Below, piece after piece: positions 6,251 to 50,400 of a stretch of DNA of 64,000 nt. The stretch comes from Prorocentrum cordatum (taxonomy: Eukaryota), in contig CAUYUJ010000048.1 in the NCBI GenBank assembly GCA_963575745.1, positions 186,001 through 250,000 on the forward strand, in the 5' to 3' direction. A program made the translations under genes and the position numbers. The notes under the pieces are model-generated. The model did no database searches. It worked only from the letters and a program-made list of their open reading frames with translations, and was not told the DNA's origin. Every line of letters begins with the position of its first letter. Position 1 is the first letter of the stretch.

Positions 6251-6982
6251 GAAGATCTTCGAGTTTGCCAGTTCCGTCATTGTTTTCGTTGCCAGTTCCG
6301 TCGCCGTTGTTTTTCCGGTTCGGGCTTGGTTCCACTTCCAGAGACGTCGTTGTTGCCGTTTCCAGTTGCCGTTTTTTTTATTTCGCTTCCATGTTCAAGA
6401 GGCACTTGTTCGGAAACGCTGAACATACGGCCCCGCCGTTTCCAGAATCGAGGGGAGGCAGAGGTTTGGAGACATGGAAGGGGGACACGCTTGTACTTAG
6501 CGTATATGGCTAATTTTTTCGTTCACGGTTGAAGAAGTGGCGCTCGAGGAAGCTTTCAAGTTCGTTTGCGGGGTCTTGACTTTACCATCTTGTTCCGCTG
6601 ACGCAGCTAGCAGGCCGGTGCACGCGCACTGTGTGCCGTCGGACCGAAGAGGGCGCGCTGGATTCTCGCAGTCCCCGATCTTCCTTTGTCCGCCCAGAGT
6701 CAAGAAACGGGACCCGAGTGTCCGAACACATATTTTGACATTTGGGTATAGTTTGATCTTGTGGTTGAATTTGGCTTCCCCCAGCCCGACCCCGCTTCAT
6801 CAGGCTTAGTCTGGCTTAATATTGGGCTTGATCTGGGCTAAATCGGCCAATTTGCTTTGATCGTTCCCGCGGAGACCTCCCAGGAGTTGCGTCCTAACCA
6901 AAATCTCCGAATCTCGATCTTTCAGGGAGGAGTCGGAGAACCTTCCTCTCAAGAAGGAGCGGAGGCGTCAGCGGGTAGCCGT

Positions 6983-7084
6983 CTCCCTCCTCTTCCTCCT
7001 CCTGTTCTCCTCCTCCTGGTTCTCCCCCTCCTGCTTCGCCTCCTCCTCCTCCTCCTCCACTCCTCCTCCTCCTCCTCCTCCTCC
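6983..7084 (+). repeat. (CCT)n pyrimidine tract abutting the spliced leader of element A
   Basis: The tcctcc run continues directly into TCCGTAGCC. Confidence 0.9.
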
Positions 7085-7103
7085 GTAGCCATTTTGGCTC
7101 AAG
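7082..7103 (+). other. Genomic copy of the dinoflagellate spliced leader, perfect 22/22
   Basis: TCCGTAGCCATTTTGGCTCAAG matches the established DinoSL consensus. It is followed by ATGATT rather than a GT donor, so it is a retro-integrated SL, not an SL RNA gene. Confidence 0.96.
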
Positions 7104-7258
7104 ATGATTTCCTGGGGGGCTGTTCAGCCTCCAGGCAGAAAGGATCGCTCTAGTCCGAGCGCGCTTTCAGCTTTTCGGCCTGTCCGCCCAGGTCTGGATC
7201 CAGTGGCCACCACGGCTGCTGGACGCTTTCACGGTTTCTCGGACCGAAGTCCGTACAG

Positions 7259-8298
7259 ATGGGGAAGAAGAATGAGCAGCAGCTCTTCGCGTGGTGCCCA
7301 TGTGGAAAATTGAGTTGAAATTGGCAGATCATCCAAAATAACTGCTCGTGCGTCTTCTGCAAAGCGCCGCTCGACGTCTTCAAGGCTGGGACTGGAGACG
7401 CTCGCGGGGAGCAGTCTCAAGGAGGGGGAGGGCAGCCACCGTGGGCCAAGGACAATCTGCAGTCCATGGGCCAGGCGATGCCCTCGCCGAAATCCCTCCT
7501 CGACCAGCTGCCGTATGCGCTCAGGTCTGGCCCTGCGGCCAAGGTTTTGCAGCAGGAGCTCGAGAATCACGAGAAGCTGTTGCGAGAAAAGAACAACAGC
7601 AACCCGCAGGCGGCAAGGCAGCGTATGCTACGGTCGGACACGGAGTGCGAGCAACAAACCAAGAAGCTCCAACGCTTCCCTGAAAAGAGGAGGCATGCCG
7701 AGGAGTATTTGGCCGACTGCGAAGAGGAGGTCACGGTGCAGTCCAGGGTCGTCTTCTTGGCAGAGCAGGACAAAGAGGCAGTCTATGCTGACTACCGCGC
7801 GCTCAGGCGTCCTGAGTCCAGAGGTGGGCCGCAGGTTGCAGAAGGACACACGGTTTGGTCACGGTGGACGAAAGCTTGTTCGCCGACATTGACGATTACG
7901 AGGATGAAGCAAAGGCCCGCCTGCTGGCCTGGAGGGAAGAAGTGGAAGAACACCGCAAGGCCGTGGAAGAAGGCCAAGGCAGGATCAAAGCGGCCCTTGC
8001 GGACATCAAGAAAACGGTGGAGGCCCCAGCAAGCAAGAAGAGGACGACCGCCTCGGGAACGGCAATCCCAGGAGGCGGGGCCGAATACGCCCAAGAAGAA
8101 GAATATTAATTTTCACAGCCACTTGAAGCCGAAGTGAAGCCCAAAGAAGATCGGTCGGCGACGTTGGGCGCTGAAGAACAAGAAGCTGGAGCTGAGCAGG
8201 TTCGTCAGACGGCCATCCATGCCGCAGCCGCCACAGCGTCTGGCAAGCCCACCTCCTTCGAAGAAGCACGCACGGGCAGAGGAAGGGCGGCGCTAAGA
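7259..8298 (+). pseudogene. ORF1 (gag-like) of element A: N-terminal Cys finger plus coiled-coil-like region, disrupted
   Basis: From ATG 7259: MGKKNEQQLFAWCPCGKLS*NWQIIQNNCSCVFCKAP. Charged helical segments follow in shifting frames (VLQQELENHEKLLREK; DESLFADIDDYEDEAKARLLAWREEVEEHRKAVEEG). Confidence 0.7.
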
Positions 8299-11200
8299 AT
8301 GGTGGTGCTGCTACTCATGGTTCACAGTCTCTTTGACGCTAAGTTCCTCTTCGGCAGTATCACGCAATGGGGTCCTCATGCGGCTCGGTACATTCACAAG
8401 GTCAAGGACGAGCATAAGGTCATTGCGCTCGCGGAGGCACATGTCGAGGAGGAGCGCATCTCCCACGAGACGGATACGCAAGGATGGATGGAAGTTATCT
8501 GCGACGCCAGCCTTCCGCAAGACTGCGGGCTTCTTGGCTGGTGAGTGGGTTTGGCTCAGTGGGCTTGGCTAGGTCACATGTGGCGACTACGACCCTGGAG
8601 GAGGTCAGGCAGGAGAAAGTGCGCAGAGGCAAAAAGGACCCCCTTCGTTGGTTTGCGCCGTTGGCGTGGCACTTGCAGTCGGGCAACGTACTCATCATTT
8701 CCTCCTACCTCCTCCCAGGCATGGCAGTCACCCTGAAGAGCGAGGACACCTTGAAAGCTTTGGCAGGGTTCCTCCACATGGTTACTGATCCTCGGATCAT
8801 TGTTGCAGACTGGAATATGTCACCGCAGGAGCTGATGGACACGGAGTGGCCCAGCAAGATGAACGCGGAATTGGTGGTCCCAGAAGTGGCCATCATTTGT
8901 GATAAAGGTGCGAAAGGTGGGCACTACGATTACGCGATGGTCAAGAAAGGCTGTCAGGCGCGAGTTTCACTACATGCAGTCCTGGATGTACCTTGGTCCA
9001 CACACTGTGGGTTGGAGGTTCGGCCGGGAAGCAGGAGCAACTTGAAGAACGGCGCTTTGCCACCCTCCCGATAGCGCTCCAGGAACCCATGAATGGCATG
9101 ATCGTGGACCCAGAGGAGGCCGAGGAGAAAGAGGTGGTGGGGTGCTTTGCATTCAGGAAGAGGAGTGGGATAGTGGTTGGACAGCAGCGAAGGTGATCAT
9201 GAAGGAAGGTTTGGATTTCTCGACGCATCCAGTACCAGAGACCCCGATGTTGTCCAGAACGGCAGGCCAGAAGGTCATTGACATGGAGCATGGGCCCTGG
9301 GCCACCTCGCTTGAAGAAACCATTCTGGGCCAAGAATCTGGAGGTCAGACCAGGGAGATGGGTCGACGCAGTGGGTTTGCTTTAGAGAAGAAAGCCTCAA
9401 GTTCGACACCAGGGAGAGTTCACAGCGAAGACCCTGTTTCTGAGCAGTGGGCTGCCATGAGCACGTTAGCCCGCAGGTTCAGGAAGTTTGTCACTATGCA
9501 GTTAGATTGTAGCCCGCAATGCACCCTCGTTCAGCGCATGGGCTCGTTGAGTGCAGTTATTTTGTCCGGCGCGTCTGATGAATACGTTGGCAGCGCTGGT
9601 GGTCCAGAACGACGGCGCTGGCAATATATGATCGTGCAGTTGCGCGCTGTCTTCACAGCAGATTGGAGGGGGGTCTTCGAGCAGCCAGGCGACAGCATGG
9701 AGGCCCATGGCAGCGACTTGGACCCAGGCGTAGCCAAGCTCATCGGCAGGACCCCGAGCTTCCAGCGCTACCAATACACCAAGCTGGCGCACGGGCCTCG
9801 ACGTCGGAGGTGCGGGACTTCCTTGCGCATCAGATGAAGGCTGCTCGCCGCAACATACTTCTGTTCTCACCCTCCCAGGAGCCCCCGGGCCCGGGACCTT
9901 CTTGCCAGGGCGGGGATCTTGGAGGGAAGCCTGAGGAGAACCCAGAAACCGATGAGGACCTGACTCAACCTCCTGCTGAGGAGGGCAGTTTTGCGAATGG
10001 CGGCAGCAATCGTTCTCAGGCAGCTGCCGCATACTTGGTACGGATATGGATCCCTTCGAGCAGATCAATGAGGACCTTCATAGTACCACCCAGCGGAACA
10101 GGCCGGAGGATCAGGTCGACGTCTTGCATCGCGAGGCCGAGGCGACCTCGATGGAGTTCGTAGACGGGTTGCAGCAGCTCGCGGAAGAGTTGCAGGCCAG
10201 GGCTCAGGCAAGGGCGATTGGCGACGGGCAAAATAAGTTTCTGTCTTGGGTCCGCGCGACCTGGATGAAGTCGCCTGGTCGACCCCACAAGCATGTCAAG
10301 GACAAGCCTGTGGACACGCAGGAGCTTGACGGCATGGCGGACCCTCTCGAAGTCATGACGTCCAGGCATCGGTATTGGCAGCAGATATGGACAGTTAGAG
10401 TAGAGACGATGGCGGACATCATCGATCGCATCTCCCAGTGCCACGAGAGAGCGCGGGTTGAGGAGTTGCCACCCTTCACCCTCCACGACGCGGGCACGGC
10501 GCTGGCAAGGATGTCGGCGAACAAGGCAACAGGCGTGGACCATGTCAGCGTAAATGGCATTGCCAGGTTGCCAACTGGGTGAAGGAACAAACTGGTGGAG
10601 CTACTTAACGACATCGGGAATGCGGGTACATGGCCCAGGCAGTTGCACGCCACAGTGGGTGCTCTATGCGCGAAGCCGTGTGGAGGTGATCGGGTTCTGG
10701 GGCTGCTACCGACTAATAAGTGCAAGGTATGGAGCCAATCGCGTTCAGGGCCAGCGTCGAAATGGCCGAACGGGCTAAGTGCATTCTGGGACACAGCACT
10801 CAGAGGTTCTTCAGCATTGAGGGCCGCCATGGTCAGATCGCTGCTTGGTGAAGTGGCATTCGCGAATGGCAAACACTTCGTAACGTTCTTGTTAGACTTG
10901 GGACAATTCTTTGACAGCGCCTCTATGTGCAAGCTTATCAATATTGCAGCCAAGGTCGGCTACCCCTCCACGATTGTACTGTTAGAAGTGGAAATGTGTA
11001 TTGCGCCGAGGTTCCTCAAGCTAAAGGAATGGGTCAGTGACAAGATTGATGTTTCGCGGTCGCTAGTTGCGGGCAGCCCGAAAGGTGTTCAATTGGCGAA
11101 CGTGATCTTGCATCCAATTCGGGAGCGCGCACACAGGGCGTCACCGCAGACGATGTTATCCACTTACATTGATGGCGCGATTGCCAGAGCACAGCACGAC

Positions 11201-13578
11201 ACAGAGGACGAGGCCGCGTTGCAGATATTCAGGTCGGTAGTGAGTTCCAGCAGGCCTTCAAGGAGGCGAGGTTGGTAATCTCGGACAAGACTGACCTCAT
11301 CGCGCCCTCCAAGCAGTCAGGCATGCGGGCGGCTAATGCGTTGAGGAACCTTGGCGCCCCAGTACATTATAAAGCTTCGGCCACGGACTTAAGCATCTAC
11401 GTCAGTGCAGGACGGGCACGAGTTTGCAGGCAGGCGAACGAACGGGAGCAGGCGGCGGATAGGAGACATGCCCGTGTGCTCTGGCTACGACGACTAGGGC
11501 CGAAACCACGTAAAGTTTGCAAAGGGCTGTGGATGACAGGGGGCAAACCCCAAGGATTATACGGCCATCAAGTTCCAGGGGCGCCTCCCAGCAGACTCCG
11601 ACAAGTCAGGACGCAAGCGGCTGCTACTATCGCTGGGGTCAAACGTGGTCGTTGCCTCATGTCGGTGTTGGAGCTCACGGTGCCCAGGACTTGAACTACC
11701 ACGTCAGCTGATGTCGGAATGGCTCACGTTATGGATTCAGAGGCCAGAATTACATCGTCCAGTCAGTGCGGCTTGGGAAGGCATCCTCAATCATATCCTA
11801 GTACAGGGCAAGGTTCGTTTGCGGCGAGTCAAAGGACCAGTTGCAGCTATCATCGGCACGCTGCTGGGAGCAGGATGGACATGCCCCAGTCCTACGCATT
11901 GGACACGCCGTACTTCCGATGGAGAAGTGGATTGGATGTCCCCGCAGTTTGACACGCCAGAGTTTGGCCAGGTTGATATCGCGCAGGTTGTTGGTGAGTT
12001 CGCTTCAGGTTTACGGTGTCAGCTCTGGAAAAATGCAGCTAAGTTCGAAGGTGATTATAATCTGGAGCATGGTGCAGACTTCAGTCAGGTCTCCGGGGAG
12101 CTTCGCAAGTATGGGCGAGCTGACGGCATTGATAACTGGGGACTCACCATCACCGCTGCCACGGGAGGCCAGTGGACGAGAGAGCGTCAACGGGCCCAAG
12201 GATAGGCACTTGAGTGGAATTGCAGGCGCTGCCACTCTGCGCCAGAAACTCTGTTGCACAGGATTTGGGAGTGTCCAGCTAACTGTGGGCGAGAGGATAT
12301 TGTAAAAAGTGATGCTCTCATTCCTCGTGCGATTGCCAGTCGCCAATTAGAACCCAGTCTGTGGCTCCGTGGGCCCCCCCCCCTTGAAAAGCTCACGGTC
12401 CCGTCGTTCGATGAGGGGTTGTGTGTTTCTCAAGGGCTGTTTCTCATGGGGGGGGGCTGGGCCGCGCCTGCCATGGTTCGGGAGAACTAGTAGTATTTGG
12501 TGATGGCTCAGGGGGGGCGGTTTTCGAGTGACCCTCGTCGGCGGGGGCGCGGAGCGGGGGTTGCCATCCTGGAACCTGTGTTGGGGGAGCCTCTGGAGCG
12601 GCCCCTGGCCTGGGGCGCCTCCGCCCCGCTCGTCGGAGAGAAGCAAACCGTTCCCAGGGCAGAGCTGCTAGCGTTTTGCATGGCGCTTGAACTGGGGTCG
12701 GGGCCGCCCCAACATCTAACTGACCCCCCCCCCCCCCCCCCTACAAGGCCTGGGAGGCAGGCCGAGGATGGAGGGAGGCCCCGAAGAAATGCGATCGAGA
12801 TTTGTGGATCAGAATTCGTGCTGCGGTGGCCGGCCGAGGCGATGATGTTTCCATGCTGTGGGCGGCCTCTCATCTGGGGGATGAGGCAGGAGGCGCGCAG
12901 ACCGTGCAGCAGCTCTTTTGGTCTATCGGCAATGCGGCCGCGGACGGTCTCGCTTCGCAAGCTGCGGGGGGGGGGGGGGTTAGCCGCCGTGCATGGTCAC
13001 GTGCCTCGCACTGACGAGGTGGATGTCGCGGCGCGGCTGGTTCGGAGGCGGGCGCGCAGAGCGCTTCAAGGCACTGCTGCGGTGGATCCGTGGGCAGGTG
13101 AGTAGACGCCGCCCCCAGTCCCCCGCCTCAGGGTTTCTCGCAGGATTCGCGCTCTCAGCGCATCCCCTCACTCTTTTGTTCGCGCGCTGGGGGGGGGGGA
13201 AGGGGGGGGGGGCGGGTGGCGGTGTCAGGTCTGCGGTGAAATCATTGCGAGCACCAGCCTCGAGCAGGCCTGCGCCCGCCCGTGCTCCCACATTCCCGCC
13301 CACCTGGTGGCGTTGGGGTCTCGGTTCGTCGCGTCGTCGGGGAGGTGTGGGTCGGGAGCAGGAAAGTTGACCCCAGGCACCAGGTCTGGAAATGGTTATC
13401 CGAGAATCTGTTATTATGTATGATGTGCGGCTTTACCGCCAGCATCGACGGCAGGCGCCCTCAGAAGGCTTGCCCGCCCCAGAGGTCCAAGAAAGGTCAG
13501 CAGAACCTTCTGCGCATCTCTCAAGGTCGCCACCCTTGCCCACAAGGGGCCCCCGAGGCGACCAAACGAATGTTGTAA
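8299..13578 (+). pseudogene. ORF2 (pol) of element A, with frameshifts and stops
   Basis: APE: FGSITQWG..IALAEAH, IISSYL, IIVADWNM, YDYAMV, WSTHCGL. RT: KATGVD, AKPCGGDRVLGLL, FWDTALRGSSALRAA, FLLDLGQFFD, LVAGSPKG, TYIDG. CCHC: GGQWTRER..CRRC..ETLLHRIWECP. RNase H: QTVPRAEL, SIGNAAADGLA. Confidence 0.9.
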
Positions 13579-13599
13579 TTGTTTTCGTCTGCCCTGGCG

Positions 13600-13756
13600 G
13601 CGCAGAGGCTTGTGCTCCTCGTGCGCGTCTTGGGTTCCATATCTCGAGGTGCGGAGGCTCGTGTTCCTCCTGCGCCTCGGCGCTGTGCGGAGGCTCGTGT
13701 TCCTCCTGCACAGGGCGTGCTGCCCTGGACGTGCGGAGGCTCGTGCTTCTTCAGCA
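13600..13756 (+). repeat. Four spaced copies of a ~24-bp hairpin-forming repeat in the 3'UTR of element A
   Basis: GCGGAGGCTCGTGTTCCTCCTGC-like units at about 13602, 13651, 13687 and 13733. Confidence 0.85.
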
Positions 13757-13809
13757 CTCCAGGGGCGTTGTGGTGCAGGGACGAGGTCCCCATGGGTCAG
13801 TCCTGGTCA

Positions 13810-13970
13810 CTCCTCCTCCTCCTCCACCTCCTCCTCCTCCTCCTCCTCCTCCTCCTCCTCCCCCTTTCCCCCCCTCCTCTCCCCCCTCCTCCTCCTCCTC
13901 CTCCTTCTTCCTCCTCCTCCTTCTTCCTCCTCCTCCTTCTCCTCCCCCATCCTTCTCCCCCCATCCTCTT
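13810..13970 (+). repeat. (CTC)n tract at the 3' end of element A
   Basis: The element runs directly into ctcctcctc with no poly(A). Confidence 0.9.
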
Positions 13971-14810: not shown

Positions 14811-15179
14811 TGCGCGAGATGCCACCGAGTATCCTGGCGGCGTGCTCCCGAGATGCCACCAGGAGTCACGAGATGCCCCGAGTACCCTGGCCACCGAGCA
14901 TCCTGGCGTCCACGAGATGCCACCAGGATCGGTGCGTGCTCTTTGGCCGCGCCAGGGAACGCGCATACACACCGATTTTGGGTCCAGGGGGCGGGCCTGT
15001 GGCAGGGCTCGGCGCACGTGCTGCGCACAGCGCCGGCGTGTCGGCGGCACGCCCGCGGGCGGGGGGGAGGCCCCAAGGGCCTCAAGCCTGCCAGGAAACT
15101 TTCGGAGCCTTCTCTCCGGAGCCCCGCCGCCTTCTGAGAGGGTTTGCCCCCCTTCCGCTTCCCTTTTCGGTGCGCCAGC

Positions 15180-15868
15180 GAGAAGGAGGAGGAGGAGGAA
15201 GGAGAGGCAGAGGAGGAGGAGGAAGAGGAGGAGGAGGAGGAGGAGGAGGAGGAGGAGGAGGAGGAGGAGGAGACGAGGAGACGAGACGAGGAGACGAGGA
15301 GACGAGACGAGGAGACGAGGGGACGAGGAGGAGGAGGAGGAGGAGGAGGAGGAGAGGAGGAGGAGGAGGAGGAGGAGGAGGAGGAGGAGGAGGAGGAGGA
15401 GGAGGAGGAGGAGGAGGAGGAGGAGGAGGAGGGGGAGGAGGGAGGAGGGAGGAGGAGGAGGAGGAGGAGGAGGAGGGAGGAGGAGGAGGAGGAGGAGGAG
15501 GAGGAGGAGGAGGAGGAGGAGGAGGAGGAGGAGGAGGAGGAGGAGGAGGAGGAGGAGGAGGAGGAGGAGGAGGAGGAGGAGGAGGAGGAGGAGGAGGAGG
15601 AGGAGGAGGAGGAGGAGGAGGAGGGAGGAGGAGGAGGAGGAGGAGGAGGAGGAGGAGGAGGAGGAGGAGGAGGAGGCATAGGAGGAAGAGGAGGAGGAGG
15701 GCAGAGGAAGGGGCAGAGGAGGCAGGGGAGGAGGAGGAGGAGGAGGAGGAGGAGGAGGAGGAGGAGGAGGAGGAGGAGGAGGAGGAGGAGGGGGGAGACG
15801 AGGAGGAGGAGGAGGAGGAGGAGGAGGAGGAGGAGGAGGAGGAGGAGGAGGAGGAGGAGGAGAAGGAG
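15180..15868. repeat. Long (GAG)n microsatellite at the 5' junction of element B
   Basis: About 690 bp of GAG repeats. Confidence 0.95.
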
Positions 15869-18800
15869 GACGCGCAGCGTGTCCAGCTGGCTGACACTGC
15901 AGGGCTACCGCGCTGCGGTCACGCCGTGCCTGGTCAAGGGCAAGCACAAGCTGGCCACGTCCTCGGGGGTCGTGGCGCGCGCGGCCAAGCACATCACGGC
16001 TGCGACCTACAGGTACGACGACCTGGACGGCCTGACCAAGCTGTGGGCGGGCAGGACTGCTGGCCTCAAGGCTCAGGCGGTTGTGCCGCCTATTTGGTTA
16101 TTCTCAGTCTACTTGTTCGATGGGTTTGGCCTCGGGGGTAAGAACATCACGCTCCTGCACGGCCTGGGCCGCTGGCTGGCGGAGCTGCGTTCGCCGTGGG
16201 TGATCGGCGGCGACTGGAACATGCCTGCCAGCGACGGAGGGATCGCCAGCTGGGCGCAGCTCCTCGGAGCCTCAGTGGTTGCAGCGGGAGGCGCGACTTG
16301 CCACCCCAGCGCGGGGGCCCCGAGGGAGCTGGAGCTTTTCGCTGTGTCGCGTGAGCTTGCTTCTTGCGTACGCCAGGTGATAGTGCACACGGAGGCGCCC
16401 TCGGCCCCCCACTCGCCGATCGAGTTGTGCGTCTCAGGTTTCTCGCTGAACATTTGCGTCCAAGTCCGCCTGAAGCGGAGGAGGTTCCCGACGGCGAGGC
16501 AGGTGGGATGCCTCCCCAATCCGCAGGTCCACAGCTGGAGCTGGGCTGAGAGGGGAGCCCCCAACAGCCTTGGGCCTCGTAGGTGCGTGGCAGGAGTGGC
16601 TCAGGAACATGGAGGATGAGCTCTGCTGCCGGTTCGACCTTCAAGGGCCCGCAGGCGAGAAGCATCGCGGCAGGGCCGACGGCATGAGCCTCCGCATTGT
16701 CGCGCTGGACGTGTTGGTCAAGCGGCGCCAGTTGCCAGGCCAGTCAGAAGCCGCCAGGGCTTGGCGATCCATGGTTGCGGTGCCGGGCAGGGCGAGGTCG
16801 CTCTGGAACGGCCACGTGGGCTTCGACCACAGCGGGGGGGGCGGCATTGGGTGCGAGCGGGCAGCCGCGGACGCGCGGGTGGTCGATGCATCCCTCCAGC
16901 ACCCAGCTCACCGCCGACGCCGCCGACGGGCGGGTGGCCCACGCCGTCCGCGGTTCGAGCACCGCCCCCCCGCACGGACAGGACGCCTTCGTGGTCGTGT
17001 TGCCGCCTGGTGGGCGGCCCTTCCCGCGAGGGCGCAAAGCTGGCGACGCTCTCCATGCGCAGCTGCAGCCTGGACCCGGTCGTGGGTCCCAGCCCTCGCG
17101 GGCTAGGGAGGAACGCGCCCCCGCGCGACGTTCCCAGGAGCTGCCTGGAGTGGAAGGTTTGGCGTCCTGCGTGCAGGGCCTCGCGGAGGGTTCGTCGGGG
17201 CTGGAGCGATAAGTGTCACAGCAGGCAGCCCGAGAGTCCAGCGCTTCTCCTCGCGCAGGCGGGGGGGGGGGCTCGGGTGCAGCAGGCGCCGTGGAGCAGG
17301 TGCGGGCGTGGCCCGAGGGGCCTCGCGGCCAGGTGCGCGACCTCCACGCCGTCTTCAGCCGCGAGGCCGACGGCCGCTTCGGACCCAGCGAGCTGGCCGG
17401 CCGCAGCTTCGCGGTTCCAGACCTTGGAGCGACGCTGCTCGCAGGCGGGGCCGGCCTGGCCGAGGCCGAGGAGCGCCCTCGGGAGCGCGCCGACGCTGTC
17501 GGTAAGCAGCAGCAGGCCGCCTGGCGCCGCGGGCAAGACTGGGCCAGAGGAGCGGTGCTCAAGGGCGGCGCGGAGGCGCAGAGGTACAGCAAGGCCTTTT
17601 CAGCCCTCGACGGGCCCTCGGTGCCCGACGGGCCCCGCTGCAGGTGGGCGCGGCCGTGGAGGCGCTGCTCGCCGAGTGGCAGGCCTACTGGCAGGCGGGC
17701 GAGGCGCCGCTCGGAGCCGAGGCGTTTGCGGCGGCCGAGAAGGAGGAGCTCCCGCGGGCTAGCCTGGCGAGTCTCAGGCGTGTGCTGGCCCGCCTCGCCC
17801 CCCGCACGGGGCTGGGCAGTGACTGCGTCAACCCGAGGTCGTGGCTCCTGATGTCCGAGGAGCTTCAGGTGCGCATCCTCGACTTGATTGAGCTGCGAGG
17901 GCGTGCGCCCTCGTTGTCCGCCCTCTGCCCCACGCTGATCATCTCCATCGGGGAGGATGGTGGTGGTCTCAGGCCGTCCGCTCTGATCGCCAGTTCGCCG
18001 CGAGCGCGGAGCCGCCTGAGGGCGGACGCGTGCCAGCAGTGGGAGCGCGACCACAGGCAGGCCGCCTTCTGGGGAGCGCGGGACAAGTCGTGCGACCGCG
18101 CTGGCTGGGAGCACAACGCGCTGGGCCACTGCGCTCAAGCGCTCGGCATGGAGTCGGGATCGCTCTTCGAGGACTTGAAAGGGGCGCACGAGTTTGTGTC
18201 GCGCGCTACCTTGGGCAGGGAGGCGCAGGGGGTCGGCTTCAGCATGCGCATCATGCGAGCGGCGTGCGCACTGTGCAGCGGGCCGCGGGCGATCTCCTGC
18301 CAGGATTGCTGCAGTGCGGCTGTCGCGGTGGGCGGCGGGGCGGTCCTGGCGGGCTGCAGCCTGGCGACCGCGATGATCAAAGTCACCCTCTACCGCGCGT
18401 TCGCCAGCCTCGGCCGCGAGCGCCCGACGGTGGCGGTGCGCGACGCGGTGGGCGACGCATCGGCGCAGTGCATCGGTGCGGCGAGGCGCGTGGCGGAGCT
18501 GCTGGGCGCAGTGGGCCGCGCGCTCGCCGCAGGCTTTTCTGACCCAGGCCTTGTGCTGCAGTGCAGTGAGAGCTTTTTCCTCGCATCCTGCCAGTCTGTC
18601 GCCGACCGTGTGTCCGTTGAATGGGGGGCTCTCGGGTTCAGGCGTAGGGGGGTTGCGCGTGACCTGGGCGCGGATGCGGCGACGGCTGGCAGGCGTGGGG
18701 ACCTGATAGCCACGGACAGGATTTGCGAGGTTTTCTGCCGCGCGGGGCGCCTCAGAAGATTGCGCGAGGCTGGCGCGAAGATCGGTGACGCGCGCCGCGC

Positions 18801-21160
18801 GGGACCCCAAGCGGCATGTTTTTGGGGCTCTGCGGTCGCGGGGTTGCCCGACAGGAAGCTCTGCGCTCTTCGGTTCCAAGCGGTGCGCAGTTTCTTTCGG
18901 AGGAAGAGGACGGCCTCGACGGGCCTGCGTCTCTTGAGTTCCACGCTCGGGGCCCAGCTCGAACCCGCCAGATTGCGCCGCGGGGAAGTTGATTACACGT
19001 GGGCGCGCGCCGTCTGGGAGGGGCCCCCGCCGCTGGACATGCTTCAGGCTTGTTTCGTGTCGGCGCGGGGCCACCTCCAGGCGACCGCCTCAAAATGGGG
19101 GGCCGCCGCGTCGCCTGCCCATGTCTGGCTGCTCTCGCTCGCTGATCTGGGTTGGGGGGTGGAGTCGGCTCGGGCGGTGGTCTCGGAAAGAGGGGGGCAG
19201 TCAGATTTGCTTAGGCTTTCGCCCGGCCTCGCCCGCCAGCTCGCAGAGAGAGCGGCGACGGGGGCATCCGACGCAGCCTCGCTCGCCAGGCACCAGCGCT
19301 TGCGAACCTGGCTTAGCCGAGCTTTTCGGCGACCGCTGCGGCGGTTGATGGAGGGGCATGGGTCTTCGCGTTGGTCGTCCCACCACCAGTCTTCTCTCCG
19401 CTCGCTGGTGTCACTGACTCAATGGCCTCAGCAGCGGATGTGCGACCGCGGCCTGGCATCCTCGAACGTGTGTCTAGCGTGCGCCGGGGCTCCAGGCACG
19501 CCGATGCACCGATGAGGTCGACAGGCGAACTATGTGCAGTTTGCCCGACAGGCCGGTCCTGAGCCAGGTGCGAGAGTGGGGCATGGCGTCTGAGCTTACT
19601 GCATGCGGCACATTCTCTTCGCCCCATCGACCCCCCCCCTGCCCCGATCGTCTCGTTCGACGAAGCGTGCCAGACCTGGCCCGCTTCTCTTTTTTTTTTT
19701 TTTTTTTGCGAGGCACGGTGTTCACGGATGGATCCGCCCTCTTCGCGTCCTGCGAGTACTCGCGGCGAGCGGGTTGGGGCTTCGTGATGACTGATGAGTT
19801 AGGTAGGTTCCAGTCTAGGTGTTTCGGAGCAGCCCCGGCGGACCTGGCCCCGTTCCAGCAGGCCCGTGACGGGGGGGGCGCCGCTTATTTCTTTGCACGC
19901 GAGTGTGTGCGGGAACCCGTCGGGTTCTTCACCGATTGCCAGGGAGCGATCGATTGCGCGTTGCCCCACGCTGTCGCCACCTGTTCATCGAACCCCAGGG
20001 CGCATCTCTGGGCGAGAATTCACGCCAGGTTCGACTCGGGCCTTGTGGCCCACAAAGTCAAAGGCCACACGACGATTCATTATGCGTGGGCGGGGCGGGC
20101 GACGGAGTGGGGGCGGGCGGGGAAGTGTTTGGCAGACAAGTTCGCGCGGCGCGGCGCCGCTTGTCACCCCATCCACCGCGTCGGCCCACGCGGACATTCG
20201 AGCCCTAGACCGCCTGGTTCAAGAGGCGACCCGCTGGGCCGCGCAGCAGGAGGTTCGGCTGGCCGCGTCCTCGGCCCAGGACGCCGAGGCCCTCCCGGGG
20301 GCGGGGGCGGGAGAGGAGGAGGAACCGCGCCTTCGTCCGTCGGATCTGCCTCCCCCGCCCCTGCCCTGCTCTCTTGTTTCGGGCGGGCGCGGCCGTTTCA
20401 AGCCTCAGAGCCTTCAGGCCTGCGGCTCTCGTGACGATCCCGAGTTGTCGGTGCTGCTGCAGCTCCTCGGTCACCGTCTGCGCGCGGCCGCCGTCTCCGA
20501 CCCCCGCGGGGCCACCGTTCTCTCGGGACCCACCGCCCTCGTCTGCATCTCTTGCGGGGGGTGCGCGTGGGGGGGTGTCGCCTCGCTGGCGCGCCCGCGT
20601 GGGGGCAGGCCGCCCACCAAGCCCACGGGGCGGCAGCTGGCGAGGGTGGAGAGGGGGCTCTTACCCTCGTGGGCCCCTCGGTATGTTGGCTGGAGGCTCG
20701 GGCCTTTGCGGGAGCCCTCTTCTAGCGACCTCCTGGCCCTGGCGGCCCCTCGTGTGTTTGGTGGCGTGCGGGCCTCGCCTCGAGCCCAGGAACCCGTCTG
20801 GGTCGTTCGGTGGTCCCGCGAGGAGGTTCTTCGGAGGTCCGGAGTCTCCTCGGACCAGCTCGAGTTTTGGAAGGTGCGGGGCGGGGACGATTGCCCTCCT
20901 GAGGAGGTCGAGGACGAGGATCCCGCCCTCCTTCGAGCTGGCTGGTTGGTTTTGTTTATAGGCGTGGCAGGCATTGCCCCACGTCCTTGAATAGAATAGA
21001 ACCGCATATAATATAATAGACTCGACTAGAATATAAGAGGGTAGAATATAATAGAATAGAATAGAGTAGAATAGGATATAATAGAATAGAATATAATAGA
21101 ATATAATAGAATATACTATAATGTAATAGAATATATTAGACTAGAATATAATAGAATAGA
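15869..21160 (+). mobile_element. 5'-truncated decayed non-LTR retrotransposon (element B) with (AATAG/AATAT)n tail
   Basis: APE: ATSSGV, LFSVYLFDG, WVIGGDWNM, SAPHSPI. RT (ORF 17644-19515): TGLGSD, GGGLRP, WERDH..AFWG, FEDLKGAHE, VLAGCSLAT, AVGD, RDLG. CCHC: QWPQQR..CLAC..GTPMHR. RNase H: VFTDGS, RAGWG, FTDC, HKVKGH, GKCLADKFA. Confidence 0.92.
20989..21160 (+). repeat. (AATAG/AATAT)n pentamer tail of element B
   Basis: gaatagaataga...aatataatagaataga begins directly after a terminal stem-loop (20961-20986). Confidence 0.9.
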
Positions 21161-21471
21161 ACAAAGTAGAGGAGAAGGAGGAAGAGGAGGAGGAGGAGAA
21201 GGAGGAGGAGGAACAGGAGGAAGAGGAGGAGGAGGAGGAGGAGGAGGAGGAGGAGGAGGAGGAGGAGGAGGAGGAGGCAGAGGCAGAAGAGGAGGAGGAG
21301 GAGGAGGAGGAGGAGGAGGAGGAGAAGGAGGACCGTCGTGACGGTGGCCGTTTCCCCCCCCCCCCCCCTTGAGCGCTCGGGGGCAGGTCTCCAGCAGGGG
21401 CGCGGCCCGCCGGGGCGATGGCGGCGGCGGCGGCGCTCGGGTCGGCGCGCCCCCTGCGCGCGGACGACCGT

Positions 21472-27775: not shown

Positions 27776-27797
27776 TCCGTGGACATTTTGGCTCAAG
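27776..27797 (+). other. Relict DinoSL (20/22)
   Basis: TCCGTGGACATTTTGGCTCAAG; not followed by GT. Confidence 0.85.
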
Positions 27798-39039: not shown

Positions 39040-39900
39040 AACCCCTACCACCCCTACCACCCCTACCCCTATCCTTGTTCCTTATTAGAACATACCCCCA
39101 CCTACCTCGTATTCCGGCCGATAGCGGCCCAATCCAGGACCTCCCATCCGGACTGTAAAAAATCAATACAAAGTGGCCGTGTTTCTTCTCAACATCGTCT
39201 TTCTTGTCGTCGACGATGCGAAAAGCGTGGCAGGAATGGGACGCGGCGCACATCGCGCGCGGCAGTCAATCTGTGCCCGCCCATCCTGACTATAAACAAA
39301 TCAATGCAAAGTCTTCGTTTTTTCCTCTCAGCATGGCTTGCCTTGTCGCCGACGGTGCGAAACATGCGGCAACAATGGGACGCGGCGCACATATGGGACG
39401 CGGCGCACATCGCGCGCGGCCGTCAATCCGAGCCCGCCCATCCTGACAGTAAAAAATCAATACAACGTCTTCGGTTTTTCTCTCAGCATGGCCTGCCTTG
39501 TCGCCGACGGTGCGAAATATGTGGCAGGAATGGGACGCGGCGCGCATCGCGCGCGGACGTCCATGCGGGCTGCGGGCCCTCCCATCCTGATTGAAAAAAC
39601 AATGCAGAGTTGCCGTTTTTTCCTTTCATCATGGCCTGTCTTGTCGTCGACGATGCGAAATGCGTGGCAGGAATGGGGCGCGGCGCGGGGACTTTTGGGG
39701 CAACCCCAAGGCGGGAGGGGCCACCTTACTTGTCAGAAACAATGCCATGCTGATTTTCCCTGCCCACGTAGCTGCTCTTCTTGTCGTCCACCCCTCAAAA
39801 GTGCATGGCAAGAATTGGGCGCGGCACGCCCCCCTGCCCCCCCGCTCGAAGTGAATGAAATGACCTTCTCGCTTGGGCGCCGAGCGAAATGTTCTCAAAG
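39040..39900 (+). repeat. ~860-bp block of ~140-155-bp tandem units, duplicated at about 41042-41915 with a partial unit at about 40760-40900
   Basis: Units cccatcc(t/g)gac..aaaaatcaataca..ttgtcg(c/t)cgacg(g/a)tgcgaaa..gggacgcggcgcacatcgcgcgcgg. Both blocks start with (ccctacc)n-atccttgttcc. Confidence 0.9.
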
Positions 39901-40112: not shown

Positions 40113-40189
40113 GCTACTACTACTACTACTGCTACTGCTACTGCTACTGCTACTGCTACTGCTACTACTACTACTACTACTACTACTTA

Positions 40190-40258
<69 letters not shown>

Positions 40259-40259
40259 A

Positions 40260-40314
<55 letters not shown>

Positions 40315-40327
40315 TACTACTACTACG

Positions 40328-40380
<53 letters not shown>

Positions 40381-40546
40381 GACTAACGATCTACTCACGG
40401 ACTTATACGACTTTTTTTTTTTTTTTTTGTTTTTTTGTTATTTTTTTTTTGTTTTACTTTTTTTTATTTTTTTTTTTTTCCTGTTTTATTATATTTATTT
40501 GGTTTTTTTGTTTTTGGTTTTTTTTTACTACTACTACTACTACTAG

Positions 40547-40620
<74 letters not shown>

Positions 40621-40630
40621 AACTACTACA

Positions 40631-40673
<43 letters not shown>

Positions 40674-40745
40674 GTGCTAGTACTAGTGCTAGTACTAGTA
40701 CTAGTACTAGTAGTAGTAGTAGTACTACTACTACTACTACTGCTA
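40113..40745. repeat. (ACT)n microsatellite with a T-rich central segment and a local (AGT)n inversion
   Basis: Seen directly in the sequence. Confidence 0.95.
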
Positions 40746-41915
40746 CCACTACGCGCCAGCACCCAGTTGCGCCAGCATTGTTTCTTATGTTGTGGGAGGG
40801 CGGGACGTGTCCGTTGTTCCTTTCAACTTGGCCAGTCTTGTCGTCGACGATGCGAAATGCGTGGCGGGAATGGGACGCGGCGCACATCCCGCGCGGACGT
40901 CAATGCGGTGTCCTGGGGCATCCTCCACTCGCAGTGAAATGCCCGCGCAGCCCCCAGTTGTGCCATCACTGTTTCTTATGTTGTGGGAGGGCGGGTGGGA
41001 ATGGGCACGCCATGCTTGGCTCGCTCGAGCTGGCTAGCTTGACCCCTACCCCTACACCCTACCCCCTATCCTTGTTCCGTATTATTATATACCCCCACCT
41101 ACCTCGTATTCCGGCCGATAGCACCCCAATCCGGGACCTCTCATCCGGACTGTAAAACATACATACAAAGTTGTTGTTTTTCTTCTCAGCATCGTCTTTC
41201 CTGTCGTCGACGAGGCGAAAAACGTTGCAGGAATGGGACGCGGCGCGCATCGCGCGCGGCAGTCAATCTTGGCCCGCCCATCCTGACTGTTAAGAATCAG
41301 TACCAAGTCCTCGTTTTTTCCTCTCAGCATGGCCTGCCTTGTCGCCGACGGTGCGAAATATGTGGCAGCAGTGGGACGCGGCGCACATATGGGACGCGGC
41401 GCACATCGCGCGCGGCCGTCAATCTGGGCCCGCCCATCCTGACTGTAAAAAATCCAGACGAAGTCTCTGTTTTTTCCTCTCAGCATGGCCTGCCTTGTCG
41501 CCGACGGTGCGAAATATGTGGCAGGAGTGGGGCGCGGCGTACATCGCGCGCGGACGTCCATGCGGGCTGCGGGCTTTCCCACTCCGAATGTAAAAAAAAA
41601 AAAAAAAACAATACAGAGTTGCCGTCTTTCCTTTCATCATGGCCGGTTTTGTCGTCGACGATGCGAAATGCATGGCAGGAATGGGGCGCGGCGCACATCG
41701 CGCGCGGACTTCTGGGGCACCCCCAAGGCGGGAGGGGCCACCTTACTTGTCAGAAGCAATGGCATGCTGATTCTCCCTGCCCACATAGCTGTTCTTGTCG
41801 TCCACCCCGCAAAAGTGCATGGCAAAAATTGGGCGCGGCACACCCCGTTCCCCCCCCGCTCGAAGTGAATGATCTGACTGTCTCGCTTGGGCGCCGAGCG
41901 AAATTTTATCAAAGT

Positions 41916-42015
41916 NNNNNNNNNNNNNNNNNNNNNNNNNNNNNNNNNNNNNNNNNNNNNNNNNNNNNNNNNNNNNNNNNNNNNNNNNNNNNNNNNNNNN
42001 NNNNNNNNNNNNNNN
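41916..42015. other. Assembly gap (100 N)
   Basis: Run of N. Confidence 1.
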
Positions 42016-47446: not shown

Positions 47447-50400
47447 AACAAGCCCGCCCTTTTTTGCCCTGAACTATCAGACCCAGCGGCCGAACGTCTC
47501 GACAAAAGCGCGCAACGCTGTGGCCAGCTGGTTCGCTTCCTCCTCCCCGAACTCCCCGCTCCACCGCGAACCAGCCCAGTGGAAGCTGGCGTCAGTTCGA
47601 GCTCGCGGGGTCACACAGACGGAAGAAGCGCATGCGTTTGCAACAACTTGCGTCTCGGCAGGACCTCGAGCAATGCTGTGGCCCTAGAACACCCCGCCAA
47701 ACATCCCTTGTGGACGGGACGGGAGGAGAGCTCGAACGCAACGAGCTTGGAGGTAGGTCTGAATGGTCATCCACGCAAGCCGCCTCAGGAAACCAGTGTT
47801 TCGAGCTGCCTCTGACAGCGACTGCAGAATAACAGTCTAGCAGCATTGCTTCAGCGGGCGGCTCCAGCGGGAAATAACCGTTTTGAAGTGTTATTTTGGG
47901 CATACCGGTCCATCCGTGATGTAAGGCCGCACCTTGGACTGATGTCGGATATTTTGGACACCCTTCCCCTGACAGCGCAAGCATCTCCACAAGTTTTTAC
48001 ACGAGCTAAGGTTTCACGTGTTGGGTCGCCTATTGCAGGGTGGCCCTCGCGTGACTCCGGGTTTGTTTGGTGCATGTTGCCAGCATCTCGTCACACGTGG
48101 TTCGATTATCGTATGTTTCTATAGTTTGTGCGAATGCCCGCCAGATTGCCTGACTGCATGCCAGTCGTTCGTGCATTCTTGATTTTTCAAAAAAAACAAG
48201 AAATAGTCTCGCAGCATGCCATCACGTCGACGAACACCGTCAAGCTATCTCCCCCTACCGCATGCGCGATTTTCGAATCTAAGTTCGAAGCAAACGCAGT
48301 CCGACGAGGACCTTCCAGCCCGCGCCCCCAAATGTCTCCAAGATCGTGAGCGACTTCCCTCTCGGCCGCAACTCGCCTTTGGAGCCTCCCCCAACTCTTG
48401 AGGAGAATGTGAGTTTGAGCAGTCAATCTACTTCTCCCGCTGGGTTTGGTGAGGCGGACTGGCTGGGTCAGCATCCCACTCGATGGCCAGATTCGACGCC
48501 CTTCGCATTCTTGTGAACAGCCGTGCTATTGCGCTGAGACCCCCGTCACCGTCGAACAGGCGGCCCCTGGGTTCAAACCAAAACGGACCCCATCCCGATG
48601 AGCATGGGAGCTGCAGCGCTGCTCGATTGGCATCTGCAGCTGAGCTCTCCGGGAGCGGGCCCCAGCCATGAAGATGGCTCGACAGGGCCGGCACAGGCGC
48701 ACCACGAGGGGGCCAACTCTTGTCCCGCACCCTGCTTTCGCCATCCGCAGGCCCGTGCGGCTGCGCCTCTGGTTGGCAGCGATCACCTCCTGTTGCGCTC
48801 CGCATGTAGTGCCGAACATGTTCTGTGGAAATGCCGCTTCGGTTGATTTTCGAGGTTCGAATCTGCAACAGGTGAATCACAAGACGGACCCACTTTCGAG
48901 GTGCAAGAGCCCATATGGATTTCACCCTGAGCCCTCCACCCTAAGACAATGATTAGTACGATGCCCGTGAGCAAAACTGGTCCCAGTCTGGAAAGAGTCG
49001 GCGGCCCGATTTCTTCAGGCCGGCGCGCACTTCTGCGACTGCTTCTCCGGGATGGACCTGGGCTCGAGCCTCGATGTCCTCAAGCGCTGCCTCGATGCCT
49101 GGTCCGACCATGCAGTCAGGTCCTGCTTCAAAGATGCTAGACGTCCAAGGCTCCAGCTCCCCTCGGACAGACCTTTCAGATTGGATGCTGGACAAGAAAC
49201 GTCCCAACTCCAAGGTGTGTGTTTCGTGGGCTCCCGGAGGCCGGCCTGGTCGGCCCGTCCTTCCTGCTGCCCAGGAGTCCCCGTGAAGCTCGCGATGGCC
49301 TCCGTGGACCAGATGGGATGCCTCGCCCGTCTGTCAGCCATGCGCGGGCCCTCTCAGCCTTGGGCACGGGGCTTCCACCGGAGCCCGCTGAGGGCGCACT
49401 CGAGTGGCACTGCAGCAGCTCTGAAGGCTGCGCCTTTCCTACCTGCCAGATCGTGCCGACCTAACAATTCCAATTCAGGCTGCGAGACTACTGCCTCCCA
49501 AGCAACGTGCAATGTCAGATTGTCGATGGCCCTCACTATCGACCAACTCTTTAAAACGCATGCCACCCCTGGGCAACGTGGGCATCCTGGATCTGGCGTC
49601 TTCGGAGCCGGCCTGGGCCCTTGCAACGCCCTGGCAAAAAAGGAATGTCATTGCCAGGCAATGGCAACAAATTGGCACGCGAGAAGAAGTGGCGCTGTCA
49701 TCGCTGGCCCACAGGCGGTGCAGACAAGGCGCCAGGCTCACCGACATTATGAGAAATGCTCCTGTCGGGAAGGCTCTGCTTCCAACTGGGCGTTGACGGG
49801 GCTCTGAGGGTGCCCCGCTAGTCCGTGGAACCATCTCAAATCACCAAGCTCCGCTGGCCCCATGCCAAAACCGCCAGCTGCAGTTCCATCGTAGCCAGAG
49901 TGATTCAATCGTTCGAGGAAGCTGCAAACATCGCGCATGAGCTTACGTGGCGTTGTTCTCAGACCATCCCTCGTTCACAAAGAGATAGACGGAAACTAAC
50001 ACGAAATTTCCGGGCATTCCACAGTGGTTCTGGGCTGGCAGTGTTCTTGAATTGGCAAGGCTTCGGGAGTTCATGAATGTTGGTGCCTTTGTCACCATCA
50101 CATTCCCCTGTGCCAGCACAGCAAGACCTGACTGCGTGCCGCTAGCACTGCCTGACAAGGTGGCAGGAGCCCAAACTCCCTGCTATCACATGGCTTGTCT
50201 CTGATGCTGAGCGTTACCCAGCTTGTCTGATGCAATGTGATACGCCTGAATCGCAAATACTGCGTTGCGGCTACTGTTGCTGCCGAAATCCAACATCTGT
50301 TTTTCATCCGTAGTGACGTGGTCGGTCCGCTACCATGACTCTTGGCCCGGCCTGTCCGCCCATCACCACCCAATTACGTAGCATCCCGCAGTTTCGGATA

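What the first reader, a model, noticed from the sequence alone, without database searches (positions are those of the whole stretch)
6983..13970. LINE whose 5' end is an intact spliced leader, embedded in (CCT)n: candidate trans-splicing-dependent, promoter-free retrotransposon
Seen: a perfect 22-nt DinoSL is the first sequence of a complete ORF1+ORF2 non-LTR element. The first SL bases (TCC) are continuous with the upstream (TCC)n, and the element ends in (CTC)n. Known: dinoflagellate mRNAs receive this SL by trans-splicing, relict SLs mark retrocopied mRNAs, and the SL ends in AG. Inference: the transposition intermediate was SL-capped. Landing behind a polypyrimidine microsatellite recreates a pyrimidine tract plus AG acceptor, so read-through transcripts could be re-trans-spliced into an exact full-length RNA without an internal promoter. 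TCC microhomology could also aid 5' joining. This differs from SLACS/CZAR/NeSL elements, which insert into SL RNA genes; no SL RNA intron is seen here.
Basis: partly seen in the sequence, partly recalled or inferred. Interest (0 to 1): 0.88.

Follow-up and report, generated by a model that had tools for sequence, protein, structure and literature searches.

The report
Dead LINE copy with spliced-leader scar
A decayed jumping gene in a dinoflagellate genome still starts with the 22-letter tag that these algae add to messenger RNAs, which shows it was copied from a tagged RNA, but nothing here shows that it depends on that tag to spread.

Summary
The sequence observation is mostly right. A perfect 22-nt DinoSL lies at 7082-7103. 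It sits directly behind a (CCT)n array and directly in front of about 6.7 kb of non-LTR retrotransposon. That body holds an ORF1 remnant, an APE-type endonuclease, a reverse transcriptase and RNase H, and it ends at 13809, followed by (CTC)n with no poly(A).

The claim of a complete ORF1+ORF2 is wrong. The copy carries 5 premature stops and about 7 frame changes. Sibling copies in public contigs lack at least two of these lesions.

The inference that the RNA template was SL-capped is well supported. The promoter-free re-trans-splicing model could not be tested, because no genome, no other 5' junction and no RNA run were available. It also faces one difficulty: the first AG behind the pyrimidine tract is the SL's internal AG. 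Published retrogene data link that AG to 15-nt relics, not to exact regeneration.

The microsatellite embedding is better explained by insertion into GGA/TCC arrays. These make up 5.8% of the window, and a second, unrelated LINE nearby sits between (GAG)n arrays in the opposite polarity.

Verdict: an SL-tagged retrocopy of a LINE, a natural corollary of known dinoflagellate retroposition. Interest is moderate.

The parts
6986..7081 (+). Upstream (CCT)n array. Only 6 of 102 bases in 6983-7084 are purines. It is either the remaining target microsatellite or a target-site duplication.
7082..7103 (+). DNA-encoded DinoSL, 22 of 22 bases. It contains an internal AG at 7087-7088 and a terminal AG at 7102-7103.
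7104..7258 (+). 5' UTR of 155 nt. An ATG lies directly behind the SL and opens a 70-codon upstream frame that ends at 7313.
7259..8137 (+). ORF1 remnant of 292 codons, with a Cys-rich N-terminus and a charged middle part. It is interrupted by an in-frame TGA at 7316. No homologue was found.
8344..9071 (+). APE-type endonuclease region of ORF2, split over two frames.
   Evidence: for example P0007 residues 65-225 match 8553-9035 (E 6.6e-16), overlapping that protein's Exo_endo_phos match. Pfam does not see the domain directly in the window's own pieces.
10022..11682 (+). Reverse transcriptase region. It has a TGA at 10580 and a frame change near 11227-11240.
   Evidence: RVT_1, E 4.4e-4, below Pfam's cut-off; 1721 homologues at E<=1e-3.
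11669..12984 (+). Middle region and RNase H region of ORF2. It has TAG stops at 12203, 12488 and 12491 and a frame change near 12778.
   Evidence: P0038 927-1272 and 1288-1350 match here; its RNase_H lies at 1199-1349.
12985..13809 (+). 3' region with no detected homology. It holds about four copies of a roughly 46-nt repeat (GTGCGGAGGCTCGTG...) in 13604-13757. There is no poly(A).
   Evidence: Contigs of X1 and X2 show skips and back-steps in this region (table 5).
13810..13958 (+). Downstream (CTC)n array. The pyrimidine run extends to about 13975, with 4 purines in 166 bases. It is an element tail, a split target array, or both.

Best explanation
This is a structurally full-length but mutationally dead copy of a dinoflagellate non-LTR retrotransposon. 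Its layout is a 5' UTR, ORF1, and an ORF2 with APE-type endonuclease, reverse transcriptase and RNase H. Its template RNA had received the DinoSL by trans-splicing at an acceptor 155 nt upstream of the ORF1 start codon, as dinoflagellate nuclear mRNAs are reported to. Target-primed reverse transcription then ran to the end of the RNA, so the whole 22-nt leader was written into DNA as a passive scar. The copy landed inside one of the GGA/TCC trinucleotide microsatellites that are abundant in this genome, which explains the pyrimidine arrays on both sides. The TCC shared by the array and the SL start may have helped 5' joining. The copy then decayed.

Shown: the SL, the domain order, the lesions, the flanks, and the existence of diverged sibling copies. 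Inferred: trans-splicing of the template, full-length TPRT, and the microsatellite target preference.
For: The SL is exact and occurs far beyond chance.

Domain order comes from homology. There are 1721 relatives at E<=1e-3. Of 12 long relatives scanned against Pfam, 4 carry Exo_endo_phos, 6 carry RVT_1, 5 carry RNase_H and 5 carry no family. These relatives map collinearly on 8344-12984.

The closest solved structure to relative P0038 is human LINE-1 ORF2p, at E 2.6e-4.

A self-comparison at E<=1e-5 found no second copy of any part of the element in the window, which speaks against LTRs.

The lesions are listed. Public contigs of run X1 include pieces identical to the window (for example 1040 bases at 11242-12281, which span one frame change and one stop). 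They also include pieces with 12-15% differences, so the lesions do not look like assembly noise and the family is multi-copy. X1 may, however, be the sample the window was assembled from. Two sibling contigs read GGT GGA where the window has GGG TGA at 10579-10580. One sibling contig has an extra G behind 9792, which would rejoin the two frames there.

Microsatellite context. Summed by hand, 20 GGA/TCC-type arrays total 3740 bases, or 5.8% of the window. A second, unrelated LINE (B, 15876-20185, with a (GAATA)n tail at 20989-21161) lies between (GAG)n 15180-15870 and (GAG)n 21169-21332. So both recognisable LINEs in the window are bracketed by such arrays.

By my own estimate, 5 nonsense changes in about 5.7 kb imply roughly 2% divergence. 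At that level a 22-nt stretch stays intact about 64% of the time, so the perfect SL needs no selection.
Against: Only one copy with a 5' end was seen, so it is unknown whether the SL is typical of the family. A target-site duplication cannot be resolved in low-complexity flanks. There is no poly(A), and I cannot tell whether (CTC)n is the element's own tail or target DNA.

Sixteen of the 20 arrays have the purine strand on +, yet both arrays that flank this element have the pyrimidine strand on +. A second SL-like relic at 54344-54365 (- strand) also sits behind a sense-strand C/T-rich tract. This polarity could reflect something more specific than simply landing in an array. The X1 contigs may come from the sample the window was assembled from, so they are not independent proof against assembly error.
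Confidence: 0.6

Rival explanations
1. The family has no promoter of its own. Read-through transcripts are trans-spliced at the AG that ends the DNA-encoded SL, helped by the upstream polypyrimidine microsatellite. This regenerates the exact SL-capped full-length RNA in each generation.
For: The SL is complete and no 15-nt relic follows it. So the template was spliced exactly in front of ATGATTTCC, which is what use of the terminal AG on an SL-bearing parent would give. Two of the 3 SL-like sites in the window sit behind tracts that are at least 84-97% pyrimidine, against a background of 2.7-3.0% of strand positions. By hand, the binomial probability is about 0.003 with the index site included. 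Leaving it out, 1 of 2 sites gives about 0.06.
Against: This copy is dead, so its flank cannot have been selected for expression. The first AG after the tract is the internal one at 7087-7088. Passages of PMC5585692 name the AG of 'AGCC' as a likely acceptor, and PMC12014239 reports CCATTTTGGCTCAAG as the prevailing relic. That splice would lengthen the RNA by 15 nt per generation rather than regenerate it. LINE B lies between purine-strand arrays. Among 101 other long frames in the window, none matched a Pfam family at E<=1e-4, so no host gene that could supply read-through transcription was seen.
Confidence: 0.17
2. The SL acts as a portable core promoter. Its TTT(T/G) motif, proposed for dinoflagellate retrogenes, gives each new LINE copy a basal promoter.
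For: Passages of PMC5585692 and PMC6050394 propose this for retrogenes. The motif is intact here.
Against: The proposal is itself unproven. Nothing in the window tests it. Transcription starting at or behind the SL would lose the acceptor and the 5' end of the element.
Confidence: 0.06
3. A defective family RNA (already broken, or non-autonomous) was mobilised in trans by another LINE's proteins, like any SL-capped cellular mRNA. On this view the lesions predate insertion.
For: Passages of PMC12014239 and PMC5585692 report that retroposition of cellular mRNAs is widespread in dinoflagellates. Other LINE families lie in the same window.
Against: At least two lesions are absent from sibling contigs. 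That fits decay after insertion just as well. There is no poly(A), which a processed mRNA copy would be expected to have.
Confidence: 0.1
4. An assembly chimera joined an SL-bearing fragment to a LINE across a microsatellite.
For: The junction lies at a simple repeat, where assemblers fail. Read laying skipped 6978-7093 as repeat, so no independent contig bridging the junction was shown.
Against: The SL abuts the LINE's 5' UTR, not the repeat, on its 3' side. The SL-to-body junction at 7103/7104 is unique sequence. The layout SL, then 155-nt UTR, then ORF1 start is what a processed transcript would give.
Confidence: 0.03

Closest known systems
DinoSL-relict retrogenes, or 'mRNA recycling' (Slamovits & Keeling 2008, known to me only as cited in passages of PMC5585692, PMC6050394, PMC12014239 and PMC7245778)
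   Same: A DNA-encoded DinoSL marks the 5' end of a sequence that went through an RNA intermediate. There is no SL RNA intron.
   Different: The retrocopied RNA is the retrotransposon's own, not a cellular mRNA. The SL is complete (22 of 22), not the usual 5'-truncated relic. There is no poly(A). In three full-text searches I found no paper that describes an SL at the 5' end of a dinoflagellate LINE. That is not proof that none exists.
APE-type non-LTR retrotransposons with RNase H (the architecture of the I, Tad1, LOA and ingi groups, recalled from memory); the nearest solved structure is human LINE-1 ORF2p
   Same: An ORF1 followed by an ORF2 with N-terminal APE-like endonuclease, RT and RNase H. 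A relative matches L1 ORF2p.
   Different: The match to L1 is very distant (E 2.6e-4). RVT_1 scores below Pfam's cut-off in the window's copy. No clade was assigned, because no reference set of LINE clades was at hand.
SL-RNA-gene-specific elements SLACS, CZAR, CRE and NeSL-1 (recalled from memory)
   Same: A LINE physically associated with spliced-leader sequence.
   Different: Those elements insert into SL RNA genes and use a restriction-enzyme-like endonuclease. Here the whole SL precedes the element, the flanks are microsatellites, there is no SL intron, and the endonuclease is APE-like.
Microsatellite-targeting LINEs (for example R1-clade Waldo, Mino, Kibi and Koshi, and Dong; recalled from memory)
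   Same: The element is bracketed on both sides by the same simple repeat, and a second LINE in the window shows the same arrangement.
   Different: Only one copy per family was seen, so specificity is not shown. The two LINEs differ in polarity relative to the repeat.
L1Tc of Trypanosoma cruzi (PMC1874656; I saw only the title and the start of the abstract in the search listing)
   Same: A LINE living in a host that trans-splices its mRNAs.
   Different: By its title and abstract, L1Tc has an internal Pol II promoter (Pr77) and gives unspliced transcripts. The copy here proves the opposite for its template RNA, which carried the SL.

Membership tests
Non-LTR (LINE) retrotransposon, APE-EN + RT + RNase H type | Reverse transcriptase of the non-LTR type | tested here: met
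   RVT_1 E 4.4e-4, below the cut-off, on 10583-11275. 1721 homologues at E<=1e-3. Six of 12 long relatives carry RVT_1. The relatives map collinearly on the window.
Non-LTR (LINE) retrotransposon, APE-EN + RT + RNase H type | N-terminal APE-like endonuclease | tested here: met
   Met by homology only. The endonuclease parts of relatives map to 8344-9071, and 4 of 12 relatives carry Exo_endo_phos. Pfam found no such domain directly in the window's pieces. Catalytic residues were not checked.
Non-LTR (LINE) retrotransposon, APE-EN + RT + RNase H type | No long terminal repeats | tested here: met
   A self-comparison of 6983-13970 against the window gave only the self-match.
Non-LTR (LINE) retrotransposon, APE-EN + RT + RNase H type | Target-site duplication | tested here: inconclusive
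   Both flanks are C/T microsatellite. The alignment is uninformative, apart from a shared ...CCTCCA-C... interruption at 7059 and 13826.
Non-LTR (LINE) retrotransposon, APE-EN + RT + RNase H type | Intact ORFs (autonomous, active copy) | tested here: not met
   Five premature stops and about 7 frame changes.
DinoSL-relict retrocopy | DNA-encoded DinoSL at the 5' end of the copied unit, and not an SL RNA gene | tested here: met
   22 of 22 bases at 7082-7103, followed by ATGATT rather than GT. No Rfam match.
DinoSL-relict retrocopy | Poly(A) remnant at the 3' end | tested here: not met
   The body ends ...CCTGGTCA at 13809 and runs straight into (CTC)n.
SL-gene-specific LINEs (SLACS/CZAR/CRE/NeSL) | Insertion within an SL RNA gene (features recalled from memory) | tested here: not met
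   The flanks are (CCT)n and (CTC)n, and there is no SL intron.
Microsatellite-targeting LINEs | The same simple repeat on both sides, recurring across many copies | tested here: inconclusive
   Met for this copy and for LINE B. Recurrence could not be tested, because no genome is held and no relatives turned up in the collections.
   No other 5' junction was retrieved.

The most novel reading that the evidence does not exclude
Dinoflagellate LINEs of this lineage define their 5' end by SL trans-splicing instead of by an internal promoter. Each full-length copy carries its own acceptor, the AG that ends the DNA-encoded SL. The endonuclease places copies in sense orientation behind the pyrimidine strand of GGA/TCC microsatellites, which then serve as the polypyrimidine tract. 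Any read-through transcript can therefore be processed back into an exact, capped, full-length template.
Probability: 0.15. Interest if true: 0.8.

Novelty: new member of a known kind. Interest (0 to 1): 0.42.

Why it matters
It shows directly that a dinoflagellate LINE RNA was SL trans-spliced and copied to its very 5' end. LINE activity has been suspected of driving the massive retroposition of SL-tagged mRNAs in these genomes, so this links the two. It also gives a simple genomic marker for finding full-length LINE insertions: an SL followed by a LINE 5' UTR. Counting stacked 15-nt relics would show whether copies descend from SL-bearing parents. The bracketing of two unrelated LINEs by GGA/TCC arrays suggests that these abundant microsatellites are landing pads for retroelements, which bears on how these very large genomes grew.

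Tried and rejected
- Whole genome of the window: none is held, so no family census was possible.
- Other copies in the window: none at the DNA level and none by tblastx.
- RNA evidence: no RNA holder was listed. This says nothing about expression.
- Read laying on X1-X4: it showed diverged sibling contigs. The junction region 6978-7093 was skipped as repeat, and no loose end at 7082/7104 appeared among the rows shown (118 more rows were not shown), so no 5' junctions could be tabulated.
- Metagenome contigs, ORF1 query: 336 pattern matches, 0 relatives.
- Metagenome contigs, RT alignment A3: 43 pattern matches, 0 relatives. Alignments A1 and A2 were too divergent for the tool.
- Viral contigs, RT alignment A3: 28 pattern matches, 0 relatives.
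- Viral contigs, DinoSL 21-mer: 119 loci and 134 distinct sites. Almost all are AT-rich giant-virus bins. None of the 119 loci encodes a relative of the LINE proteins (0 tblastn hits at E<=1e-5), so they do not help with the LINE question.
- ORF1 protein P0152: no homologue.
- P0001 against longer proteins: 1 hit, unnamed.
- Cluster names of relatives: the database was switched off, so the taxa of the relatives are not documented.
- Earlier scan notes: none on this genome or on this sequence.
- The RT fragment at 48109-48669 (- strand) as the body behind the SL-like site at 54344-54365: the distance is about 5.7 kb, against 3.5 kb in element A, and no collinear endonuclease was found. Left open.
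- Target-site duplication: not resolvable.
- Clade assignment: not attempted for lack of reference sequences.
Full report
**What is there.** The + strand reads (CCT)n at 6986-7084, then TCCGTAGCCATTTTGGCTCAAG at 7082-7103, then ATGATTTCC.... The array's last TCC is also the start of the leader. The 22 bases are the canonical DinoSL. A search allowing 3 mismatches found three sites in the window, and none in 100 shuffles. The SL is followed by ATGATT, not by a GT donor, and no Rfam family matches anywhere in the window, so this is not an SL RNA gene. The unit ends at 13809 (...CCTGGTCA) and runs directly into (CTC)n at 13810-13958, with no poly(A). Both flanks are almost pure pyrimidine on the + strand: 6 purines in 102 bases upstream and 4 in 166 downstream.

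**What the body is.** Pfam sees only a sub-threshold RVT_1 match in the window's own frames (E 4.4e-4). I read 9980-11275 through its one TGA with an X and searched it against 1.84 billion representative proteins. That gave 1721 relatives at E<=1e-3 and 553 at E<=1e-10, the best at 40% identity.
- Of 12 long relatives scanned, 4 carry Exo_endo_phos, 6 carry RVT_1, 5 carry RNase_H and 5 carry no Pfam family. Where these domains co-occur, they lie in the order endonuclease, RT, RNase H.
- The relatives map collinearly on the window: endonuclease at 8344-9071, RT and what follows at 10022-12775, and the end of RNase H at 12781-12984.
- The nearest solved structure to relative P0038 is human LINE-1 ORF2p, at E 2.6e-4.
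- Upstream, an ATG at 7259 opens a 292-codon ORF1-like frame with a Cys-rich start and a charged middle. It has no detectable homologue.

The layout is therefore SL, a 155-nt 5' UTR, ORF1, ORF2 (EN-RT-RNH), a 3' region of about 0.8 kb with roughly 46-nt repeats, then (CTC)n. A self-comparison at E<=1e-5 found no second copy of any part of the element in the window, which speaks against LTRs. This is a non-LTR retrotransposon.

**It is not intact.** The longest open frame in the body is 272 aa. Along the homology path there are premature stops at 7316 and 10580 (TGA) and at 12203, 12488 and 12491 (TAG), plus about seven frame changes.
- Public contigs of run X1 include pieces identical to the window across some of these lesions, for example 1040 bases at 11242-12281.
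- Other X1 pieces differ at 12-15% of positions (42 of 343, 60 of 413, 51 of 351).
- Two such contigs read GGT GGA where the window has GGG TGA at 10579-10580. One carries an extra G behind 9792, which would rejoin the two frames there.

So the family is multi-copy, and at least two lesions are private to this copy or its near kin. X1 may be the sample the assembly came from, so this is not independent proof against assembly error.

**What the SL shows.** Passages of PMC5585692, PMC12014239 and PMC7245778 describe the SL as trans-spliced to dinoflagellate nuclear mRNAs and treat a DNA-encoded SL as the accepted hallmark of retroposition. PMC7245778 itself recovered the SL on only a minority of full-length transcripts. 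The plain reading is that the LINE's own RNA was trans-spliced 155 nt upstream of ORF1 and reverse-transcribed to its end. By my own rough estimate, five nonsense changes in about 5.7 kb imply around 2% divergence. At that level 22 bases stay untouched about two times in three, so the perfect SL needs no selection.

**The re-trans-splicing model.** It could not be tested. No genome is held. The junction was skipped as repeat when contigs were laid. Two scans of metagenome contigs and one of viral contigs found no relatives. No RNA run was listed. What can be said from the sequence:
- The first AG behind the pyrimidine tract is the SL's internal AG at 7087-7088. The terminal AG lies 15 nt further on.
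- PMC5585692 names the AG of 'AGCC' as a likely acceptor, and PMC12014239 reports CCATTTTGGCTCAAG as the prevailing relic. Splicing there would add 15 nt per generation, not regenerate the RNA exactly.
- This copy has no relic behind its SL. Its template was therefore spliced either on a parent without a DNA-encoded SL or at the terminal AG of an SL-bearing parent. The data cannot tell these apart.
- A dead copy's flank records where it integrated, not selection for expression.
- PMC5585692 and PMC6050394 offer a competing idea for retrogenes: that the SL brings a TTT(T/G) core promoter.

**The microsatellite.** Summing by hand, 20 GGA/TCC-type arrays cover 3740 bases, or 5.8% of the window. 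A second LINE of another family (B) has its endonuclease at 15876-16577, RT at 17629-19512 including a 669-codon open frame, and a clear (GAATA)n tail at 20989-21161. It lies between (GAG)n 15180-15870 and (GAG)n 21169-21332. Both recognisable LINEs in the window are thus bracketed by such arrays, but with opposite polarity relative to the element. That favours integration into GGA/TCC arrays over a need for an upstream pyrimidine tract.

Two observations keep the polarity question open:
- Sixteen of the 20 arrays have the purine strand on +, yet both arrays flanking element A are pyrimidine on +.
- The SL-like relic at 54344-54365 (- strand, 2 mismatches) also sits behind a tract that is 84-90% pyrimidine. 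Only 2.7-3.0% of strand positions have such a tract. The third site, at 27776-27797, does not. Leaving out the index site, that is 1 of 2, roughly p = 0.06 by hand.

A target-site duplication cannot be read in these flanks.

**Comparison with what is known.** This works like a DinoSL-relict retrocopy, with the retrotransposon's own RNA as the template. It is not like SLACS, CZAR or NeSL (recalled from memory), which sit inside SL RNA genes and use a different endonuclease. It resembles microsatellite-targeting LINEs (recalled from memory) in its flanks, though with one copy per family seen. It contrasts with L1Tc, whose title and abstract report an internal promoter and unspliced transcripts (search listing only). 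Three full-text searches, followed by passages of nine papers, turned up no description of an SL at the 5' end of a dinoflagellate LINE. Supplements were not opened, and subscription journals are not covered.

**Verdict.** An SL-capped intermediate is well supported. The promoter-free, self-regenerating mechanism remains an attractive but untested idea with one specific difficulty. I file this as a new member of a known kind, at moderate interest.

Noticed in passing
IMG/VR loci L001-L119 (for example L011, L024, L051, L106): The exact DinoSL 21-mer occurs at 134 distinct sites in 119 loci, nearly all in AT-rich giant-virus bins. There it follows a conserved AT-rich motif of about 45 nt (TTGATAAATCAATTTTTTATTTTT...TTTTA) and precedes diverse sequence. 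It looks like promoter+SL cassettes in front of viral genes.
   Followed up: partly
window 15138-21332 (+): A second LINE of another family (B). A 493-codon frame reads the 691-bp (GAG)n array in frame with the endonuclease (codons start GAG AAG GAG..., read by eye, so it would code mostly Glu). There is also a 669-codon open RT frame at 17506-19512 and a (GAATA)n tail at 20989-21161. The element has (GAG)n arrays on both sides and no SL.
   Followed up: partly
window 54344-54365 (-) and 27776-27797 (+): Two further SL-like relics, each with 2 mismatches. The first sits behind a C/T-rich tract of about 95 nt on its own strand. The second sits behind A/C-rich sequence and opens a 183-codon frame with no Pfam match.
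   Followed up: partly
window 48109-48669 (-): A degenerate RT fragment of a third LINE (best tblastn E 8e-9). Whether the SL-like site at 54344-54365 is its 5' end is undecided.
   Followed up: partly
whole window: GGA/TCC-type trinucleotide arrays: 20 arrays, 3740 bases (5.8%). Sixteen have the purine strand on +. There are also a 1.5-kb (GAT)n array at 38-1533, a (CTA)n array at 40114-40752, and 12-mer arrays at 59919-62752 that switch strand near 60650. The 101 long frames tested outside the element gave no Pfam family at E<=1e-4.
   Followed up: no
window 39236-39686 and 41127-41709: Tandem repeats of 143-156 bp lie on both sides of a (CTA)n/poly-T block. The second set is followed by a 100-N gap at 41916-42015.
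   Followed up: no
window 13604-13757: About four copies of a 46-nt repeat in the LINE's 3' region. Contigs of X1 and X2 skip or repeat units here, so copy number seems to vary among family members.
   Followed up: no
window 6861-6894: A short stretch just upstream of the (CCT)n array where several X1 and X2 contigs start or end with unrelated sequence (loose ends at 6860/6861 and 6894). This suggests a small dispersed repeat.
   Followed up: no
window 13184-13222: A G-rich low-complexity stretch inside the LINE's 3' region collects very high contig depth in all four runs, including other organisms. It is a generic simple sequence, not a sign of copy number.
   Followed up: no
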